This document shows, piece after piece, positions 1-11,471 of a stretch of DNA of 11,471 nucleotides; the first letter of the stretch is position 1; each line of letters starts with the position of its first letter. Source of the DNA: a virus (lineage: Duplodnaviria; Heunggongvirae; Uroviricota; Caudoviricetes). The notes under the pieces were generated by a model. That model searched no databases. It was given only the letters and a program-made list of their open reading frames with translations, and was not told where the DNA came from. Location of the stretch: positions 1 through 11,471 of the IMG/VR virus record IMGVR_UViG_2585427783_000001; one strand, 5' to 3'. The position numbers and the translations under genes are program-made.

Positions 1-616
1 GTTATACGAATCCGGCAGAATAACGGAAGCCGCGTGTATGGCTCATGTCCGGAGAAAAATCCACGATGTGCATGCAAGAGCGCCCACCTACATCACCACG
101 GAAGCCCTGCAGCGTATCGGTGAACTGTATGCCATCGAGGCAGAGGTCCGGGGCTGTTCAGCAGAACAGCGTCTGGCGGCAAGAAAAGCCAGAGCCGCGC
201 CACTGATGCAGTCACTGTATGACTGGATACAGCAACAGATGAAAACACTGTCGCGTCACTCAGATACGGCAAAAGCGTTCGCATACCTGCTGAAACAGTG
301 GGATGCACTGAACGTGTACTGCAGTAATGGCTGGGGGGAAATCGACAACAACATCGCAGAGAACGCCTTACGGGGAGTGGCCGTAGGCCGGAAAAACTGG
401 ATGTTCGCGGGTTCCGACAGCGGTGGTGAACATGCGGCGGTGTTGTACTCGCTGATCGGCACATGCCGTCTGAACAATGTGGAGTCAGAAAAGTGGCTGC
501 GTTACGTCATTGAACATATCCAGGACTGGCCGGCAAACCGGGTACGCGATCTGTTGCCCTGGAAAGTTGATCTGAGCTCTCAGTAAATATCAATACGGTT
601 CTGACGAGTCGCTTAC
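1..616 (+). mobile_element. IS66-family insertion sequence, right-hand portion (rest lies left of the window)
   Basis: The transposase ORF is open to the window edge. About 30 bp after its stop the sequence ...GTCGCTTAC ends at 616, the reverse complement of the GTAAGCG terminus I recall for IS66-family inverted repeats. The integrase-derived sequence starts immediately after. Exact boundary is inferred. Confidence 0.55.
2..586 (+). CDS. IS66-family transposase (TnpC-like), C-terminal part; 5' end outside window
   Basis: Frame is open from position 2 with no upstream stop. Translation carries the conserved IS66 transposase C-terminal block ...[11 protein letters not shown]...[46 protein letters not shown]... 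Stop at 584-586. Confidence 0.85.
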
Positions 617-1454: not shown

Positions 1455-1837
1455 TATAAGAATCCGCTTCTAATTCAAAGCATTACCCCATCAACACTGC
1501 GCTCACACGTCCCACCACATCAAAACATGTAAAGCCTTGCAAGCCATTGCGAGGCTTTATGTGTCTCAGTTTTGTCCCACCTTTTATTACGACTTGCATA
1601 GCCAATGAAGATAAACGTGACGACAAACGGCGCAGCAATCTTCCTTTCTTTCACACTTTCCCAACCCAGCATGTATACTTTTCTGCCATAACTAAAGTGA
1701 ATGCCTGTTATGAGCAACAAACAGGCATTAGCGCCGCTAGCATATTAGCTACCATTCGACTGCCACACTTAAGATTGATTTCTTAAGTATAACCCGGTTT
1801 CTAATACTACTTATATATTCAGCTCTGAGATTCATTT

Positions 1838-4800
1838 TTATCTCGTAAAGCTAGTTTTATGACTTCCTGTTAGCTGACTGTCTTCATAATAAAATGCTCC
1901 ACTAAACTCCTGTCGACCATAATGATGACTTGATATGAGTGAGCCCCCTATAACGCCCTTTTCACCTAATAATGTCCAAACGATTTCAAAACCATTGTCC
2001 CTTAACATTGTTAAAAATGGTTCTTTTTTAACAAGTAGATGCGGCTTTGAAGCATATACAGCTTCAGCTGCAAAGCAAACCATAGTTCCATTTTCATCAT
2101 TGAAGCTACCCTCTACTTCCCCACTTTTTAATCCCATCTTTTCAAAGATTAAGTTACTAGGCTTCAAAAAATTCAAAGTTTCTATTTTTGATTTGTCGAA
2201 CTCCTCTTCCCACAAATAATTAATCGAAGTGACACTAACATCAGCTATCTTAGCTCCAGACTCCCGGTCTGTTACCGAAGTCCAGTCAGATCCACCATAA
2301 TAATCTGATTTAAAAGACTTAAATGCTTCGGACCAATAGTACTCCCTATTAAATAATTGGTATCTATCAGTACATTCCGGCATCCACCTGCCCATAAAGT
2401 CTTGAGCTATTGCCCAACATCTAAAATTTTCAAATTCTTCAACTTTAACGATATAACTTCTGATCTGATACCAAACCTCTTTTCGTGGGTGCCCCCAATC
2501 ATCGTTTCCAATAATTTTTGGTTCTTTCCATGATGGATGACTTTCTAATACTATCCATTCATCACCATTATCATCTTTAACTTCAATAAAAGCATATGAA
2601 TTAGTTATAGTAGTAGAACTTTTAACCCAGTCTTCATTAGAGCAAGTCCAATCAAACACTTCATCATTAAGCCACCACATTTCTTTATTGCTTATTTTTT
2701 TCGTTCCAGTTTCTTTAAGTAAGATAGTGGGATCTATATCTCTTACGTAAGGCTCCCATGGCCCTTGGTATGGATTTTCCTTTCGTTCGTCACCATAACC
2801 TTCAAAACGAGTAAAATTATCGGCTAGCCTTGCCATGTATTCATAATAAGCAATCCATTGGTATTTTTTACCAATCCGTTCTTGGAATGCCTCTCTACGT
2901 CCACGTCCAGTTCCTATTTGTTGGTCAAAATTACCATGCTTCTCCGGATCCCAACCAAGCTCTATAACACGATTGAATATAAATTGTTGAGCTAGTCGAA
3001 GATCAAAGTGTTTATCAGTTTCCAGCAGATTATTATTATGATCCAGGTATGGCTCTATTTCATTTTCAAACTCACTTAACAGATCGTATGACAATGAATT
3101 CTTAAATAATTTCTTGCTCGCCTTTATTTCTTCCTGTGCTTTTCTACCGACCACACGACCAAATTTAATTCCTTCGCATTTATCATCATAAATGAAAGGA
3201 TCTGTGGCATCATACAAGTCTTTTTGTTGATCAGTTAGTTTACATTTGAAAGTTTTAAAAACTTGCTTACGGTCAACAGGGGTTTCATTAAACTTGCAAC
3301 CAGACCAATCAGAATGATTATAATTTGTTCCAATAGTATATCGTGAAAAGTCACCATCTTCCATAATAGAGCTCCAGAGTTCCCGATAAGGTTCTTTATC
3401 ATAAAGGGACTCTAGTTCCTCTTTTGAAGGAATCTTGTCAGGCCAAATGCTGTTGTAGGGTGGTCTAGTCTTGGATAATTCAATGCTTTCAAGTTCCAAT
3501 CCAAGATGATTAGCAAATTCAATAATCTCTCTAGCATAATCTCTAAGTAATATATTTGGATACACATACTTAGAACAAAATACCTTTTGGTAAACAGTTT
3601 CGGCTAAATATTTTAGTTCTTTAATATTATCAGTTCGCAATGTACAGCCTAATGCAACTGCAAATATTCTTTCCCAAACGTAAGGATCATTTACACCATA
3701 AAACTTATCAATTATTTTTCTCAATACAGGAATTCTTGGCTCGAGTAAACTCACTAAAGCCTTAGTTGAGCAATCTCGAAGTTCTCGGTTACTAGAAGTT
3801 AAAAACCAGCATAAACTAGTTGCAACTAGCTCGATTGACTCATCCGAAACAAAGCTTTTATCTGTTCTGGCCCATGCCCAATCGATTAGATGCCTAAATG
3901 CTGAGTCTTCACTATATTTATATTTAAGTTCTGTAGTCCAAAACGAATCTCGATTTGCCAAAGAATAATCTTTTAGCCAATCATGCAAGAAATTAGCATT
4001 AAAGGGATGGCCAACTAAACCTGAAATAGAGATCACTGCCTCGAGGAAATGATCAAAACTATCTTTAAATTTAAAAACATGTTCATTGATGAAAGGTCTA
4101 ATTTTTTCGAAATAAATAGCCTTAATATCGCGCCATATCAAGCTATCAATAAAGGCTTCTAGTAATTTAAGATTATTGCTGAACTCCGGCAGAAATTCAT
4201 AAAGCTCTTTTTCATACCTTTCTGGCAATTGAATAGACAACGCCTCTACTATTCCCGATTTTATATAAAAATCACATTCATCATGAAAATATTTTTTCAG
4301 ACGACCATCAGGCTTAAATTCACTTTCGATATTTTCAACATCATTTAATAAAAAATTAACAGTTAAATGATCATCAAACCTTTCAAAAGCCACATAAACT
4401 ACTTCCTCAGTAGAATTATCATCATTTCTCACTATGCCTTTAGTCAATAATCCTTCGTCAATCAAGGCGCTGAGGAAGGTTTTATCAGCAACATAATCAT
4501 TAACTACAGATTGAACCACTGAGTGAGCATCTTTAAGTGAAATACTATTACGACCAATCTCTAATTTGAATTTTATGATTTCATTGAGAGCATCTTTAAC
4601 AAGAGGAAAACTGGGATCGAATGCATATTTTTTTGGCGATGCTAATGATTTATTTACCCCTTCAACTAAAAAGTTAAAAATATTTGAAATCCCATTAAAT
4701 CCAACAGGCACTTTGGTTAAACCATTTTTCTTAATGCCTTCACACAATAACTTAAGAAATAGAGGATTTTTAAACTCTGGATTAAGGTTAGGAGATGAAG

Positions 4801-5443
4801 GCCTCTCAATATTGTAATAATCATAAAATAGACTAACCGCTTCCAACTCAACGTTCTGGAATCCAATATGTTCATGAATTTCAAAATTATTTCGCACAAC
4901 ATTCTCATGTGAAATTGTTACATTTCTATATGTTGTTCTGACTGACATTATCAGACCAAGCCATTCAAAGCATCTGATTTCATCGACAAAACTGTTAATA
5001 TTGTCATTCCAGAATTTATTTCCATTACCTTCATTAATAGCATCAATAAAAACTAAGACTCTTTTTCCTGTTTTTTTGCCATATAAATTCAGTTTTTCTA
5101 GGAATTCACGAGAAGTGATTTTAAGCTGTAATCTCTTGAAGATTTGTGACCATGGAGATTCATCTGAAGTAAGTTGTTGCCCTAGTATGAGTAGTGAAGG
5201 ATACCCAGAAGCAATTCGATTTTTAATCACATCAGCCAGTAAATGAGACTTACCAATTCCTGCTTTTCCTTCGAGAAGTAAGAATGGGTTGTTAGCCAAC
5301 TTCACTGTTGTTGAATTAATGAATATACGTAATTCATTGCACGCATAGTCAAATTCCCGAAGCATTCGCAGAGTAGATGAATACTTATCACTGTAATGCT
5401 TGGTTTCACCTACTTGCTCTGACTTTTCTCGGAGTTCCCACAA
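1838..5443 (-). CDS. Large P-loop NTPase of the STAND class (NACHT/NB-ARC-like) with a ~1000-aa unassigned C-terminal region; candidate antiphage protein
   Basis: Uninterrupted 1201-codon ORF. Walker A GKAGIGKS (aa 59-66, nt 5246-5269), Walker B-like hhhhDxxxE VLVFIDAINE (aa 129-138) and sensor-1-like IMSVRTT (aa 165-171) occur in the order and spacing typical of STAND NTPases. Low GC. The start codon is uncertain: the track uses a TTG at 5443, and the first in-frame ATG is codon 27 at 5365. Confidence 0.8.
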   Translation of the reverse strand: MWELREKSEQVGETKHYSDKYSSTLRMLREFDYACNELRIFINSTTVKLANNPFLLLEGKAGIGKSHLLADVIKNRIASGYPSLLILGQQLTSDESPWSQIFKRLQLKITSREFLEKLNLYGKKTGKRVLVFIDAINEGNGNKFWNDNINSFVDEIRCFEWLGLIMSVRTTYRNVTISHENVVRNNFEIHEHIGFQNVELEAVSLFYDYYNIERPSSPNLNPEFKNPLFLKLLCEGIKKNGLTKVPVGFNGISNIFNFLVEGVNKSLASPKKYAFDPSFPLVKDALNEIIKFKLEIGRNSISLKDAHSVVQSVVNDYVADKTFLSALIDEGLLTKGIVRNDDNSTEEVVYVAFERFDDHLTVNFLLNDVENIESEFKPDGRLKKYFHDECDFYIKSGIVEALSIQLPERYEKELYEFLPEFSNNLKLLEAFIDSLIWRDIKAIYFEKIRPFINEHVFKFKDSFDHFLEAVISISGLVGHPFNANFLHDWLKDYSLANRDSFWTTELKYKYSEDSAFRHLIDWAWARTDKSFVSDESIELVATSLCWFLTSSNRELRDCSTKALVSLLEPRIPVLRKIIDKFYGVNDPYVWERIFAVALGCTLRTDNIKELKYLAETVYQKVFCSKYVYPNILLRDYAREIIEFANHLGLELESIELSKTRPPYNSIWPDKIPSKEELESLYDKEPYRELWSSIMEDGDFSRYTIGTNYNHSDWSGCKFNETPVDRKQVFKTFKCKLTDQQKDLYDATDPFIYDDKCEGIKFGRVVGRKAQEEIKASKKLFKNSLSYDLLSEFENEIEPYLDHNNNLLETDKHFDLRLAQQFIFNRVIELGWDPEKHGNFDQQIGTGRGRREAFQERIGKKYQWIAYYEYMARLADNFTRFEGYGDERKENPYQGPWEPYVRDIDPTILLKETGTKKISNKEMWWLNDEVFDWTCSNEDWVKSSTTITNSYAFIEVKDDNGDEWIVLESHPSWKEPKIIGNDDWGHPRKEVWYQIRSYIVKVEEFENFRCWAIAQDFMGRWMPECTDRYQLFNREYYWSEAFKSFKSDYYGGSDWTSVTDRESGAKIADVSVTSINYLWEEEFDKSKIETLNFLKPSNLIFEKMGLKSGEVEGSFNDENGTMVCFAAEAVYASKPHLLVKKEPFLTMLRDNGFEIVWTLLGEKGVIGGSLISSHHYGRQEFSGAFYYEDSQLTGSHKTSFTR

Positions 5444-5536
5444 TATTGATACCGCTCCGCCAATAGCTGTCTGGCAGCTAGAAACATAGTTATTAAATTT
5501 ATTTATAGGGATTTCATCTAATTTAGAAAAATTAAT

Positions 5537-6292
5537 CTACTGATATATATCAGAAATTTCTTTTAAGGACTGATTTATTTCAAATAATTCTGAGGAAATT
5601 ACATCGCAACTATGTAATTTCTTTCCAGCGACCAGAAAGCTATCTATATGCGAATAAAATATTTTAGAAAAATCATTAGTTCTACCGAGGCCATCAAATA
5701 TCTCTGCTATTTCTAGCTTTACGTTGAGTTCGGGTGTGTATCGACCTCCCAAGTCAGCTATTGCTTGACTATTTTTTTCATTTAACCAATCATCACTTAA
5801 GTGAAAAGTTAGTTTCTCATCTATAGACCGTAAAATAAGTTTGACTTGAATGAGCTCTTCATTAATATCGAATATTTTTTCTTTATACGTTTCTTCGATA
5901 TGTAGCTTTTTTAACTTCGAACAATTATTGATTTTTAATGATAACATCCCATAAAAAAGGCTGAGTTGTTGTTGAGTTGGGGGAGTGACGCTTGGATATT
6001 CTTTGAACTTGTCTAATAACATCTCTTTGTCAGGGAACTCTTTAAAAAGGATGTACTCATTCAACATCTCAAACAATGGTTTAGAATGATAAAATGGAAT
6101 TGCTCCACTTTCTACTGGATATGTTTCTTCAAACTCAATTGCCGTCTCTTCAATTAGTTGATATAATCTATCCACATATTTTTCTGTGGGGAATAATGCT
6201 TTCTTAATCCAACTATATCCTTCTTGAGAAATGAATTGATCAATAAGTTTAGTTGCTACATAAGTTGCCACTGTAATTGATATGGGTTCCAT
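5537..6292 (-). CDS. Hypothetical protein (251 aa), upstream partner of the STAND NTPase; possible detached effector or N-terminal domain
   Basis: ATG at 6292 is preceded by GGGAGA about 8 nt upstream, a good Shine-Dalgarno. Same strand and same frame as the downstream NTPase gene, low GC. I see no catalytic motif in the translation. Confidence 0.7.
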   Translation of the reverse strand: MEPISITVATYVATKLIDQFISQEGYSWIKKALFPTEKYVDRLYQLIEETAIEFEETYPVESGAIPFYHSKPLFEMLNEYILFKEFPDKEMLLDKFKEYPSVTPPTQQQLSLFYGMLSLKINNCSKLKKLHIEETYKEKIFDINEELIQVKLILRSIDEKLTFHLSDDWLNEKNSQAIADLGGRYTPELNVKLEIAEIFDGLGRTNDFSKIFYSHIDSFLVAGKKLHSCDVISSELFEINQSLKEISDIYQ

Positions 6293-6460
6293 GATTAGCT
6301 TCTCCCAACAATTAAATTTTTACCAAGCGTTTATGCTTTCCAATAATTATTACATCTCACCGTAAAACATATTTATATGGTTTTAAACCTATCTATAAAT
6401 CTTGACACCTTGGCAAGAACCTAATCCTACATTTTAATATCAATCTATATAATATCGCCA
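6293..6460 (-). promoter_or_regulatory. AT-rich upstream region likely holding the promoter for the 251-aa ORF / STAND NTPase operon
   Basis: Non-coding AT-rich stretch directly upstream of the first gene of the minus-strand pair. Several weak -10/-35-like hexamers are present, for example TATAAA on the minus strand near 6373-6378. No element can be placed with confidence. Confidence 0.25.
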
Positions 6461-6814
6461 GCGTCATAATAATCGGGCTTGTCATAGTTAAGTATTCGCC
6501 TCCGATATCCCAATGAGATAAGTAAGTCATAAGTGTTATAAATGAAAAGGTTACATTTTTCAAAGAGTTATTATGATGGAATATTATTCAAAACGCAATG
6601 TAGCTGAAACGAGTCTGAGTTTAACATCCGCTCCTAGTACATAGTAGTCCTAGGGACAGTGGCGTAAAGTCATAGATGGCCGGTGGGAGGTGATGGAAAT
6701 CCTCTCATGCAAAAAATACATAAAATCGATAACGGCTGGAAATCATTCAATACTCGCACTATCGAAAGTTCACCAGCCAACCGCGCACAATCTTGCATAC
6801 GACATGCTACGGTT

Positions 6815-7369
6815 TCATTTATCTCCGACCGGAAACTTCTTATACAGTGTCGATATACCAACATCATAGATGATCGCCACCTTCTGGCGAGGAACGCCTG
6901 ATGCAATTAATCGCCCGGCCTGCGCCCATTGTTCTGGTGTAAGTTTGGGACGACGTCCCCCAATTCGTCCCTGTGCGCGAGCAGCTTCCAGTCCAGCTTT
7001 TGTTCGTTCAACAATCAGTTCTCGTTCCATTTCAGCCAGGGCACCCATCACATGAAAGAAAAAACGCCCCATCGGTGTGCTGGTATCAATAGCATCCGTC
7101 AGGCTGCGAAAATTAACGCCACGTTCGCGCAACTCCTCAACCAGAATGACCAGATGCCGCATACTACGCCCCAGCCGATCCAGTTTCCAGACCACCAGAG
7201 TGTCACCTGCCGATAATGTCCTGAGCAGTTTTTTCAGTCCCGGTCTTTCGGACTTCGTACCGCTTATCTTGTCTTCAAAAATCAGTTCACATCCTACACA
7301 GTTCAACGCATTACGTTGTAGATCGGTGTTCTGGTCATTTGTTGATACGCGAACATAGCCAATAAGCAT
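6815..7369 (-). CDS. pin: Serine DNA invertase of the Pin/Gin/Hin/Cin family
   Basis: Translation MLIGYVRVSTNDQNTDLQRNAL...DTLVVWKLDRLGRSMRHLV...[28 protein letters not shown]...GRIGGRRPKLT... is a canonical small serine recombinase with catalytic Ser in YVRVST and a C-terminal helix-turn-helix. The ATG at 7369 has GGGGGA about 6 nt upstream. The ORF track begins 12 codons earlier (MASFLLLPGGST), probably not the real start. Confidence 0.9.
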   Translation of the reverse strand: MLIGYVRVSTNDQNTDLQRNALNCVGCELIFEDKISGTKSERPGLKKLLRTLSAGDTLVVWKLDRLGRSMRHLVILVEELRERGVNFRSLTDAIDTSTPMGRFFFHVMGALAEMERELIVERTKAGLEAARAQGRIGGRRPKLTPEQWAQAGRLIASGVPRQKVAIIYDVGISTLYKKFPVGDK

Positions 7370-7455
7370 GGTAGATCCCCCAGGTAAAAGCAGGAATGAT
7401 GCCATTTGCTCGTTATTTCTGCATTTTCATAAACCTTGGTTTGGGAGAAGGTGCT
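7041..7455. repeat. Left arm of a ~415-bp inverted repeat (invertase 5' region plus crossover site)
   Basis: Reverse complement of 9164-9578 aligns base for base with 7041-7455 (coordinate sum 16619) with only a few mismatches: two amino-acid changes in the invertase and CC versus TG inside the crossover site. The right arm is cut at 9578 by IS100, so the original repeat may have been longer. Confidence 0.8.
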
Positions 7456-8887: not shown

Positions 8888-9223
8888 TCAATACCCCACC
8901 GCTATAATGTCCACATTAAATCCCCCGGGACCTGCCTGCCAGATGCTGGCCCCTGTTAATGATTTTGTTTGATGAACAACCGCCACATTTGCTGGCGATT
9001 GTGTTTCAGTTGTTACAGTACCGATATCATTCCAGTTAATTGAGATGGAATAGTTCGTTGTTGTAAACGACCGGGGGAAAGTTATGTGTCTTACATTGGT
9101 GCCGACAGGAAATCCAAGATAAACACGCTGAATTATCATTCCTCCAGGTAACATAACCCAGTTAGCACCTTCTCCAAAACCAACATTTATGAAAATGCAG
9201 AAATAACGAGCAAATGGCATCAT
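8888..9223 (-). CDS. Alternative tail-fibre C-terminal variable-domain cassette (Sv'-like); lacks the constant part
   Basis: Mirror-image partner of the forward cassette, beginning inside the right repeat arm with the same MMPFARYFCIFIN leader and then diverging (...GEGANWVMLPGG...NVDIIAVGY). Directly followed by the reverse tfa gene. Confidence 0.65.
   Translation of the reverse strand: MMPFARYFCIFINVGFGEGANWVMLPGGMIIQRVYLGFPVGTNVRHITFPRSFTTTNYSISINWNDIGTVTTETQSPANVAVVHQTKSLTGASIWQAGPGGFNVDIIAVGY
9170..9195. other. Invertase crossover site, right (inverted relative to the left site)
   Basis: TTCTCCAAAACC-AA-CATTTATGAAAA is the reverse complement of the left site apart from two central bases, and sits at the junction of repeat and unique DNA. 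Confidence 0.55.
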
Positions 9224-9249
9224 TCCTGCTTTTACCTGGGGGATCTACC

Positions 9250-11471
<2,222 letters not shown>

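What the first reader, a model, noticed from the sequence alone, without database searches (positions are those of the whole stretch)
5441..5539. The two defense-candidate ORFs share one reading frame, separated by a single TAG and a stop-free 31-codon linker with no ATG
Seen in sequence: the stop of the 251-aa ORF (TAG, minus strand at 5539-5537) is in frame with the NTPase ORF. The 31 codons between them (INFSKLDEIPINKFNNYVSSCQTAIGGAVSI) contain no stop and no ATG or GTG. The track's NTPase start is a TTG at 5443 with only a distant GGAG about 13 nt upstream, and the first in-frame ATG is at 5365. In AT-rich DNA a 31-codon stop-free in-frame gap is unlikely by chance. Inference: the locus may descend from, or still encode via amber suppression or readthrough, one ~1485-aa protein with an N-terminal ~250-aa domain fused to the STAND NTPase, the usual Avs/bNACHT layout. 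Alternatively it is a recently split, translationally coupled pair, or a sequencing error.
Basis: partly seen in the sequence, partly recalled or inferred. Interest (0 to 1): 0.6.

Follow-up and report, generated by a model that had tools for sequence, protein, structure and literature searches.

The report
Amber nonsense mutation splitting Avs2
The two "defence-candidate" ORFs are one well-known E. coli anti-phage gene, avs2, cut in two by a single recent G-to-T change that turns glutamate codon 252 into a TAG stop, so this is an ordinary broken copy of a known gene and not a new gene arrangement.

Summary
On the minus strand, 6292..1838 is one 1485-codon frame with a single internal stop, TAG at 5539-5537. 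The gene is EcAvs2 (AVAST type 2), whose 1484-aa single chain has been solved by cryo-EM (PDB 9O4E) with Glu at position 252.

- **Closest intact allele:** the window's translation differs from WP_001394806.1 only at this codon (GAG to TAG). The DNA carries one further synonymous change 34 nt away.
- **Site in relatives:** none of 80 complete E. coli genomes that hold this stretch carries the window's version. All 11 relatives from other species read through the equivalent position with a sense codon.
- **Not a sequencing error:** six other independent assemblies or read sets carry the TAG, on two haplotypes, in the same genomic context. It is a rare, clonally inherited allele.
- **The "31-codon linker":** it is ordinary Avs2 coding sequence inside the helical extension between effector and ATPase. 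It is not a domain boundary.

The best reading is a recent loss-of-function nonsense allele, that is, a young pseudogene. Residual function through basal readthrough or a reassembling two-chain protein is not excluded, but nothing supports it. Interest is low.

The parts
1838..6292 (-). avs2 (EcAvs2, AVAST type 2 anti-phage STAND NTPase), 1485 codons including the natural stop, interrupted by one premature TAG
   Evidence: translation. (RefSeq annotates the same 4455 nt as one intact avs2 CDS in close relatives). (PDB 9O4E chain A, 1484 aa). (PADLOC and NCBIfam Avs2 profiles match colinearly across both ORFs).
5537..5539 (-). Premature amber stop at codon 252 (TAG). The ancestral codon is GAG (Glu), so this is a G-to-T transversion on the coding strand (plus-strand base 5539 is A in place of C).
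   Evidence: GAG in E1620, FORC_031 and DETEC-E223; GAA in two more divergent E. coli alleles. (0 of 80 complete genomes match the window here). (Glu252 in 9O4E). (sense codon in 11 of 11 other species).
5540..6292 (-). 5' fragment, codons 1-251. It holds the uncharacterised non-enzymatic N-terminal effector of EcAvs2 plus the first part of the helical extension. GenBank annotates it as hypothetical protein AD05_4937 (KEL22342.1).
   Evidence: names and accessions. (PDLC02164 positions 58-259). (NCBIfam Avs2 model positions 1-72 match residues 178-246). PMC13601566 for the domain description.
5444..5536 (-). These are codons 253-283 of avs2, normal coding sequence for the helical extension, and stop-free only because it was translated sequence until recently.
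   Evidence: identical to 9O4E residues 253-283. (conserved YQEI.FSKL..IP..F..C..A in relatives). (model: loop 253-262, then helix 263-293).
5441..5443 (-). TTG, codon 284 (Leu in the intact protein). It is the mechanical start of the 1201-aa ORF annotated as AD05_4936 (KEL22341.1) and is at best a weak reinitiation site.
   Evidence: SD-like GGAG at 5458-5455, 11-nt spacer, dG -6.2, matched or beaten at 5.5% of gene positions.
5363..5365 (-). First in-frame ATG after the stop (codon 310, Met in the intact protein), with no SD-like sequence. Logan gene calls start the 1175-aa product here.
   Evidence: dG +0.7. (1175-aa product on 3 contigs).
1838..5536 (-). 3' fragment, codons 253-1484 plus the natural stop. 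It holds the rest of the helical extension, the STAND ATPase, the TPR domain and the C-terminal terminase sensor. Its sequence is intact, and the part from residue 284 aligns end to end with 9O4E.
   Evidence: 1201 aa aligned to 9O4E residues 284-1484, 2799 bits. (only difference from WP_001394806.1 is codon 252; all contact residues named in PMC13601566 are present). (1594 bits against NF041813, cut-off 1000).
5246..5269 (-). Walker A motif GKAGIGKS, codons 342-349, including Lys348. It lies downstream of the stop.
   Evidence: PMC13601566 reports that K348A abolishes EcAvs2 defence.
5573..5573 (-). Synonymous change in codon 240 (AAC to AAT, Asn). It is present in only some of the TAG carriers, so it arose after the nonsense mutation.
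   Evidence: TAG+AAC in L005, L006 and L009; TAG+AAT in the window, L007, L008 and L010.

Best explanation
The feature is a recent nonsense mutation in a known single-gene defence system. In *E. coli* 5-366-08_S4_C2 and a small clonal group of relatives, codon 252 of avs2 changed from GAG (Glu) to TAG.

**Shown**
- Ancestry from a single 1484-aa ORF.
- The exact base change.
- The reality and inheritance of the allele.
- Its position inside the conserved Avs2 core.

**Inferred**
- Translation from the normal ATG at 6292 ends at the TAG and releases a 251-aa fragment. That fragment holds the N-terminal effector plus the first two long helices of the helical extension.
- The remaining 1232 codons (rest of the helical extension, ATPase with Walker A K348, TPR, C-terminal terminase sensor) are then translated poorly or not at all.
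- In intact EcAvs2, terminase binding drives ATP-dependent tetramerisation, which brings the covalently attached N-terminal effectors together (PMC13601566). Uncoupling the effector from the sensor-ATPase should therefore abolish abortive-infection defence.
- On this reading the locus is a young pseudogene, sitting in an IS-riddled, decaying prophage remnant.
For: - **One gene:** both ORFs match single Avs2 profiles colinearly. For PADLOC PDLC02164, ORF1 covers positions 58-259 and ORF2 covers 293-1497 of 1504. For NCBIfam NF041813, ORF1 covers 1-72 and ORF2 covers 120-1317.
- **Identity to the solved protein:** the first 649 residues, with codon 252 read as Glu, align end to end to PDB 9O4E chain A (1484 aa). 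The differences are confined to the first 115 residues and the chain has E at 252. ORF2 aligns to 9O4E residues 284-1484.
- **One change from an intact allele:** the only amino-acid difference from WP_001394806.1 is E252*. In DNA there are 2 differences in 4801 nt from strain E1620. RefSeq annotates avs2 as one intact 4455-nt CDS in those genomes.
- **The stop is not conserved:** 0 of 80 complete E. coli genomes carry the window's version of the site. Eleven loci from other species all have a sense codon there (GAA x7, GCA x2, AGT, AAA). In the ten not cut by a contig edge, the first ATG lies 250-255 codons upstream of the position equivalent to codon 253.
- **Real and inherited:** the TAG is present in L005-L010, from different assemblies and SRA runs at 99.96-100% identity including flanks, on two haplotypes.
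- **Rare:** the exact split products are on about 6-7 contigs, against 106 and 161 contigs for the two commonest intact alleles.
- **Inside the core, not at a boundary:** family profiles align from residues 131-178. The AF2 model shows helices 187-224, 230-252, 263-293 and 302-333, with block pLDDT of 59-93 over residues 211-330.
- **Other inactivated copies:** other avs2 copies are broken by unrelated lesions. IS1B is inserted in strain CRE10. *Colwellia psychrerythraea* ND2E has a single in-frame TAA about 245 codons further downstream.
- **Decaying context:** a truncated integrase, an IS66 fragment, IS100 and a truncated invertase flank the gene.
Against: - No expression or phenotype data exist for this allele, so loss of function is inferred and not shown.
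- The 3.7 kb downstream of the stop has no further lesion in any TAG carrier. The carriers differ by only 0-3 substitutions over as much as 7 kb, so this says nothing about selection in either direction.
- The base after the stop is A (TAG-A). From general knowledge of E. coli translation, this context is not among the strongest terminators, so a small amount of readthrough product is likely to exist.
- An SD-like GGAG with a TTG lies 96 nt downstream of the stop, so some synthesis of the 3' fragment cannot be excluded.
Confidence: 0.85

Rival explanations
1. Leaky expression. Basal or suppressor-mediated readthrough of the TAG yields a low level of full-length Avs2, probably with Gln or another residue at 252. 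That level would be enough for some defence, perhaps with less autoimmunity.
For: The downstream frame is fully intact and is the experimentally active protein from residue 253 on. Position 252 tolerates E, A, S and K among relatives, so an inserted residue would probably be harmless. The stop context is TAG-A.
Against: - The stop is absent from every relative examined, so it is not a conserved recoding site.
- No tRNA gene lies in the window.
- No readthrough-promoting structure or motif was identified.
- By general knowledge, natural E. coli isolates normally lack amber suppressors, and basal UAG readthrough is a small fraction of normal expression.
- Avs2 must form a tetramer to act (PMC13601566), which penalises low concentration.
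Confidence: 0.07
2. Functional two-chain Avs2. The 251-aa effector fragment and a reinitiated 1201-aa sensor-ATPase fragment (TTG 5443) are both made. They reassemble non-covalently through the split helical bundle and keep the defence function.
For: The cut falls in a loop between helices of one helical bundle, a geometry at which split proteins can sometimes complement. An SD-like GGAG precedes the TTG. The allele has persisted long enough to acquire a later synonymous change. Multi-gene Avs2 systems with separately encoded partners are described in the literature (PMC11564622; title and abstract of bioRxiv 10.64898/2026.08.25.746987).
Against: - No relative has this split. All full-length loci are single ORFs.
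- The TTG and GGAG are ordinary internal codons of the intact gene, and an SD match this good occurs at 5.5% of positions.
- The spacer is long at 11 nt, and the start lies 96 nt from the stop, which is far for termination-reinitiation coupling.
- The allele is rare and clonal, as expected for a neutral or mildly deleterious recent mutation.
- The model is of only moderate confidence (mean pLDDT 61).
Confidence: 0.05
3. Sequencing or assembly error in this draft contig. The real genome would have GAG.
For: It is a single-base difference in a draft assembly (contig JOQM01000089.1), and a second difference lies only 34 nt away.
Against: The same TAG is present in six other contigs from different assemblies and SRA runs (L005-L010). 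It occurs both with and without the neighbouring synonymous change, which is the pattern of inheritance and not of error.
Confidence: 0.02
4. Two unrelated neighbouring genes that share a frame by chance.
For: The local pattern alone (a 31-codon open gap in the same frame) has a chance probability of a few percent.
Against: Both ORFs are colinear parts of one protein family model and of one solved protein chain.
Confidence: 0.01

Closest known systems
EcAvs2, the AVAST type 2 antiviral STAND NTPase of E. coli (PDB 9O4E; RefSeq WP_001394806.1; Nat Commun 2026, PMC13601566)
   Same: It is the same gene. The window's translation matches WP_001394806.1 at every residue except codon 252. It aligns to the solved chain from end to end, with about 11 substitutions confined to residues 27-115. 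The Walker A motif with K348 and every terminase- or ATP-contact residue named in the paper (D981, R1130, R1132, W1266, E1362, E1364, E1444, E1462) are present. The setting is also the same, a prophage or integrative-element cargo position next to a pin-type invertase and tail-fibre genes.
   Different: Codon 252 is TAG in place of GAG, so the single 1484-aa chain cannot be made by normal translation. The effector is uncoupled from the ATPase and the sensor.
Other naturally disrupted avs2 copies: IS1B insertion in E. coli CRE10, in-frame TAA in Colwellia psychrerythraea ND2E, truncated Erwinia billingiae copy
   Same: Each is an otherwise colinear avs2 carrying one inactivating lesion. This shows that loss of this defence gene recurs.
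   Different: The lesions differ in type and position: IS1 at nucleotide ~1752-1760, TAA at about codon 497, and divergence at the P-loop near residue 340. Nothing is special about codon 252.
Programmed stop-codon readthrough or recoding sites
   Same: A single in-frame stop with a long open frame behind it.
   Different: The stop is not conserved in any homolog, and no associated signal was found. It is confined to one clonal lineage.
Multi-gene Avs2 systems (KpAvs2 operon, PMC11564622; Avs2-trypsin-MBL, bioRxiv 10.64898/2026.08.25.746987)
   Same: These are Avs2-family sensors that work together with separately encoded proteins.
   Different: In those systems the partners are distinct genes with their own domains, and the Avs2 protein itself remains one chain. 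Here a single chain is cut inside its conserved helical extension.

Membership tests
Avs2 (AVAST type 2) | Sequence match to the curated family model above its cut-off (NCBIfam NF041813 equivalog, cut-off 1000 bits) | tested here: met
   ORF2 alone scores 1594.2 bits over model positions 120-1317, and ORF1 adds positions 1-72. Six PADLOC Avs2 models also hit, the best with an E-value of 0.
Avs2 (AVAST type 2) | Tripartite architecture: N-terminal effector, central STAND ATPase with Walker A, and a TPR plus C-terminal sensor | tested here: met
   The sequence is colinear with 9O4E chain A over residues 1-1484. Walker A GKAGIGKS is at 342-349 and the sensor contact residues are conserved. The domain description comes from PMC13601566.
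Avs2 (AVAST type 2) | Encoded as one uninterrupted polypeptide, so that the effector is covalently coupled to the oligomerising ATPase | tested here: not met
   There is a premature TAG at codon 252 in this allele. The locus is therefore a disrupted member (pseudogene allele) of the family and not an intact one.
Avs2 (AVAST type 2) | Anti-phage activity triggered by the phage large terminase | not testable with these tools
   This is shown for the intact EcAvs2 allele in PMC13601566. It has not been tested for the TAG allele.
Programmed stop-codon readthrough / recoding | The stop codon is conserved at the same position in orthologs | tested here: not met
   None of 80 complete E. coli genomes carries the window's version of the site. 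The codon is GAG or GAA in the five intact E. coli copies read directly, and a sense codon in 11 of 11 other-species loci.
Programmed stop-codon readthrough / recoding | A dedicated suppressor tRNA or a stimulatory signal | tested here: inconclusive
   There is no tRNA in the 11.5-kb window. The rest of the genome could not be examined, and no downstream structure was searched for specifically.
Recent pseudogene (nonsense allele) | A single disabling change relative to intact, near-identical orthologs, with the rest of the frame still open | tested here: met
   There is one non-synonymous difference (E252*) from WP_001394806.1 and 2 nucleotide differences in 4801 nt from strain E1620.
Recent pseudogene (nonsense allele) | The allele is real and heritable, not an assembly artefact | tested here: met
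   Six further assemblies or read sets carry the TAG, on two haplotypes.
Translationally coupled split gene pair | The split is conserved in relatives, with an own start and SD for the downstream gene close to the upstream stop | tested here: not met
   No relative is split at this position. The nearest in-frame start is a TTG 96 nt downstream with an unexceptional SD-like match.

The most novel reading that the evidence does not exclude
The E252amber allele may not be dead. One route is low-level readthrough. The other is non-covalent reassembly of the 251-aa effector fragment with a reinitiated sensor-ATPase fragment across the split helical bundle. Either way, this lineage would retain an attenuated Avs2 defence. 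That would be a natural 'two-chain' or dosage-reduced bacterial NLR-like receptor, possibly favoured because it lowers autoimmunity against resident prophage terminases.
Probability: 0.06. Interest if true: 0.4.

Novelty: already known. Interest (0 to 1): 0.1.

Why it matters
The result matters mainly for annotation and for surveys of defence systems.

- **Annotation:** GenBank lists the two pieces as unrelated hypothetical proteins (AD05_4937 and AD05_4936). They should be read as one avs2 pseudogene.
- **Defence-system counts:** a tool that scores the 1201-aa piece alone will call an intact Avs2, since that piece scores 1594 bits against a 1000-bit cut-off. It will therefore overstate this strain's defence repertoire.
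- **Biology:** this is one more example of the rapid turnover of prophage-borne defence genes. IS insertion and other nonsense or truncated alleles of avs2 were seen in other strains and genera.
- **Possible use:** the natural allele could serve as a ready-made effector-uncoupled control for EcAvs2 work.

Nothing here opens a new question.

Tried and rejected
- **Pfam on both pieces:** only sub-threshold STAND/P-loop hits, and nothing for the N-terminal piece. This fits the published 'uncharacterised effector' but does not help.
- **Large protein search with ORF1:** it returned only 149-411-aa fragments, mostly from contigs of 1-4 kb. It therefore cannot say whether the N-terminal piece ever stands alone. 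It was useful only for alignment A1 and the structure model.
- **Foldseek of the model against PDB:** no significant hit, only generic helical bundles. That library stops at April 2026 and so lacks 9O4E, and the mapping onto resolved residues of the cryo-EM model could not be done.
- **Three short Logan contigs (L011-L013):** these were returned as 'carrying' the 251-aa product. They are wild-type (G allele) contigs that merely end at that codon. This is an artefact of lookup by exact product, so they were removed from the carrier count.
- **First related-loci query:** It was repeated with a stretch of the window itself.
- **Promoter and terminator scan of 5200-6700:** counts are no higher than in shuffled sequence. 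No terminator and no convincing minus-strand promoter lie between the pieces.
- **Literature search for the strain name:** nothing found.
- **Selection test on the downstream frame in TAG carriers:** not possible, because there are only 0-3 substitutions over as much as 7 kb.
Full report
**1. The observation**

On the minus strand, window 6292..1838 translates as 1485 codons with a single internal stop, at codon 252 (TAG, 5539-5537). The mechanical ORF list gives 5537..6292 (251 aa, ATG start) and 1838..5443 (1201 aa, TTG start), and both lie in the same frame.

The first in-frame start codon is the TTG at 5443 (codon 284), and the first in-frame ATG is at 5365 (codon 310). Two small corrections apply:
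- The stretch does hold two out-of-frame ATGs and one out-of-frame TTG.
- The GGAG lies at 5458-5455, which leaves an 11-nt spacer to the TTG.

As a chance event the local pattern is only mildly unlikely. In the non-coding frames of the same AT-rich island, 7.2% of stop-to-stop gaps are at least 31 codons, and the chance of sharing a frame is one in three. The truly non-random fact is one stop in 1485 codons, where about 7% of codons across all frames are stops.

**2. What the gene is**

Both ORFs match the same Avs2 profiles, in order:
- PADLOC PDLC02164: ORF1 covers profile positions 58-259 and ORF2 covers 293-1497 of 1504.
- NCBIfam NF041813 (Avs2 equivalog): ORF1 covers positions 1-72 and ORF2 covers 120-1317. 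ORF2 alone scores 1594 bits against a cut-off of 1000.

The gene is the experimentally characterised EcAvs2. The first 649 residues, with codon 252 read as Glu, align end to end with PDB 9O4E chain A, a single 1484-aa chain that reads ...DIYQEINFSKLDEIP... with Glu at 252. ORF2 aligns to residues 284-1484 of that chain.

The window's translation differs from RefSeq WP_001394806.1 at codon 252 and nowhere else. The Walker A motif (GKAGIGKS, 342-349, including K348) is present. So are all terminase- and ATP-contact residues named in the structural paper (PMC13601566).

**3. The mutation**

The avs2 locus is present in 88 of 5426 complete E. coli genomes, and RefSeq annotates it as one intact 4455-nt CDS in the copies examined.

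Against the closest genome (strain E1620) the window has two differences in 4801 nt:
- Plus-strand 5539 is A in place of C, so the coding codon is TAG in place of GAG (Glu252).
- Plus-strand 5573 is A in place of G, so codon 240 is AAT in place of AAC (Asn, synonymous).

None of the 80 complete genomes that hold this 101-nt stretch matches the window exactly. The best are 98.0% identical, which corresponds to those two mismatches. More divergent E. coli alleles have GAA at the site.

Eleven loci from other species were found with a query taken from the window itself: Escherichia sp., Serpens, Pistricoccus, Cycloclasticus, Aeromonas, two Shewanella, two Colwellia, Photobacterium and Enterobacter. 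They are 71-98% identical to the query segment. All read through the equivalent position with a sense codon (GAA in seven, GCA in two, AGT, AAA). In the ten not cut by a contig edge, the first ATG lies 250-255 codons upstream of the position equivalent to codon 253. Nine of them have open frames of 1487-1504 codons.

Homologs are single fused ORFs with a sense codon at this position.

**4. Real allele or error?**

The window is the whole contig JOQM01000089.1 of assembly GCA_000714095.1, *E. coli* 5-366-08_S4_C2. GenBank annotates the two pieces as hypothetical proteins AD05_4937 and AD05_4936.

An exact-product lookup found the 251-aa protein on further contigs. I checked each at the DNA level.
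- **Carriers:** L005-L010 come from four other NCBI assemblies and two SRA runs. They carry the TAG and are 99.96-100% identical to the window over as much as 7.2 kb, flanks included.
- **Not carriers:** three short Logan contigs (L011-L013) are wild-type contigs that merely end at that codon, so I discarded them.
- **Order of events:** carriers fall into two haplotypes, TAG+AAC (L005, L006, L009) and TAG+AAT (window, L007, L008, L010). The nonsense change therefore came first and the synonymous change followed within the lineage.

This is the signature of inheritance, not of sequencing error. The allele is rare. The exact split products are on about 6-7 contigs, against 106 and 161 contigs for the two commonest intact 1484-aa alleles.

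**5. Where the stop falls in the protein**

The published description of EcAvs2 lists five parts in order (PMC13601566):
- A large helical extension that contacts the terminase.
- The ATPase.
- A TPR domain.
- A C-terminal sensor.

The same paper says most Avs2 homologs carry Mrr-like nuclease effectors in place of this one. Generic Avs2 profiles start to align at residues 131-178 of the protein. The family core therefore begins well before residue 252, and the TAG corresponds to about position 78 of the 1317-position NCBIfam model.

I modelled a 399-aa relative that spans the site, using an alignment of 12 sequences. The mean pLDDT is 61, and the 10-residue blocks over residues 211-330 score 59-93. 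The model shows four long helices at 187-224, 230-252, 263-293 and 302-333, just before the P-loop strand. The stop lies between the second and third helix.

The '31-codon linker' is thus ordinary, conserved coding sequence of the helical extension. It is not a linker, and the split is not at a domain boundary.

**6. How it most likely works**

*Shown:* the locus was a single ORF until one G-to-T change, and the allele is inherited.

*Inferred:*
- Ribosomes starting at the ATG at 6292, which has a good SD (dG -7.3), terminate at UAG-252 and release a 251-aa effector-bearing fragment.
- The 3' part is translated little or not at all. No in-frame start lies within 96 nt. The TTG at 5443 has an SD-like match no better than 5.5% of positions in the gene, and the ATG at 5365 has none.
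- No extra promoter or terminator signal stands out between the pieces.
- Activation of Avs proteins depends on ligand-induced tetramerisation of the ATPase, which brings the attached N-terminal effectors together (PMC13601566). Point mutations of the effector, of the ATPase, or deletion of the sensor abolish defence in the related KpAvs2 (PMC11564622). Uncoupling the effector from the sensor-ATPase should therefore abolish defence.

I put 0.85 on 'recent loss-of-function nonsense allele'.

Other lesions in other copies fit the general picture of defence-gene turnover:
- IS1B is inserted in *E. coli* CRE10.
- *Colwellia psychrerythraea* ND2E has a single in-frame TAA at about codon 497.
- An *Erwinia billingiae* copy diverges and ends at the P-loop.
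- The window's own surroundings are decayed: an IS66 fragment, a truncated integrase, a truncated invertase copy and IS100.

**7. Rivals**

- **Readthrough or suppression (0.07).** The downstream frame is intact and position 252 tolerates several residues. However, the stop is conserved nowhere, no tRNA lies in the window, and a tetrameric receptor is sensitive to dose.
- **A functional two-chain protein (0.05).** The cut lies in a loop of a helical bundle and a weak start signal exists. However, no relative is split, and the allele is rare and clonal.
- **Sequencing error (0.02).** Rejected by the six independent carriers.
- **Chance juxtaposition (0.01).** Rejected by colinear homology.

The lack of further lesions downstream carries no information, because the carriers differ by only 0-3 substitutions over as much as 7 kb.

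**8. Comparison with what is known, and verdict**

The gene is a member of the Avs2 family by sequence and architecture. It fails one family feature, the uninterrupted chain. It should be filed as a disrupted allele of EcAvs2, not as a new layout or a recoding site.

Novelty: already known. Interest is low, about 0.1. The practical value lies in annotation and defence-system counting, because the 1201-aa piece alone passes the Avs2 family cut-off. The allele could also serve as a natural effector-uncoupled control.

The most novel reading not excluded is residual function by readthrough or fragment reassembly. I give it a probability of about 0.06, with moderate interest if true.

Noticed in passing
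window 7041-7455 and 9164-9578: A 415-nt inverted repeat, 97% complementary, with 1708 nt between the arms. Each arm overlaps the 5' part of a serine invertase gene: pinE-like 6815-7405 on the minus strand and a truncated copy 9214-9651 on the plus strand. The segment between them holds oppositely oriented tail-fibre-assembly ORFs (Caudo_TAP). It looks like a duplicated or rearranged Pin/Gin-type invertible tail-fibre region. The second invertase copy stops where similarity to most related genomes ends, at 9578, just before IS100.
   Followed up: partly
window 1-586, 630-1394 and 9665-11466: The contig begins inside an IS66-family transposase (tnpC) that abuts an N-terminally truncated tyrosine integrase. 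It ends in IS100 (IS21 family istA and istB). avs2 therefore sits in an IS-bounded, decayed prophage or integrative-element remnant, and the contig ends are probably assembly breaks at repeats.
   Followed up: partly
window 1500-6500 compared with the flanks: The avs2 gene region is 31-37% G+C, against 44-55% in the flanking prophage and IS sequence. This fits horizontally acquired cargo. Close relatives of the gene occur in marine gammaproteobacteria such as Colwellia, Shewanella, Photobacterium and Cycloclasticus.
   Followed up: no
L014 (E. coli CRE10, NZ_CP034404.1), locus 3276-3973: avs2 is interrupted by an IS1B insertion. The two halves overlap by 9 nt of the gene (nucleotides 1752-1760), as expected for an IS1 target duplication. 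RefSeq names the 3' part Avs2 and the 5' part 'hypothetical protein'.
   Followed up: partly
L025 (Colwellia psychrerythraea ND2E, NZ_JQED01000055.1), stop at locus 5221-5223: The Avs2 homolog is 68% identical and colinear in one frame over residues 1-1484. It carries a single in-frame TAA where E. coli has Tyr (…FYDN*NIERP…, about codon 497). This is an independent nonsense allele at a different position.
   Followed up: partly
P0032 (Erwinia billingiae, 352 aa, on a 1.9-Mb contig): This relative reads through position 252. It then diverges from the family at the P-loop (…NNPFFFSKEKLGL… in place of NNPFLLLEGKAGIGKS) and ends soon after. It looks like a frameshifted avs2 copy.
   Followed up: no
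window 5708-5755 (codons 180-195): The most conserved stretch of the N-terminal third is DLGGRYTPELNVKLEI, followed by F..G.G.T. It is invariant or nearly so across relatives down to 37-45% identity, and it lies where generic Avs2 profiles begin to align. The model has low confidence here (pLDDT below 50 for 177-206). I did not find its role described.
   Followed up: no
window 5949-6230 (codons ~21-115 of avs2) and upstream to 6500: Differences between E. coli avs2 alleles cluster in the effector-coding 5' end and the promoter region. Nearly all of the 32 differences from strain DETEC-E223 lie between 5949 and 6498. The substitutions relative to the solved chain lie within its first 115 residues. 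This suggests mosaic or recombinant 5' ends.
   Followed up: no
L011-L013 (Logan contigs): Lookup by exact product returns wild-type contigs that happen to end at codon 251 as if they encoded the truncated protein. They end in …CAGG or …CAGGA, which is the G allele. This caveat applies to any count of truncated alleles made with that tool.
   Followed up: yes
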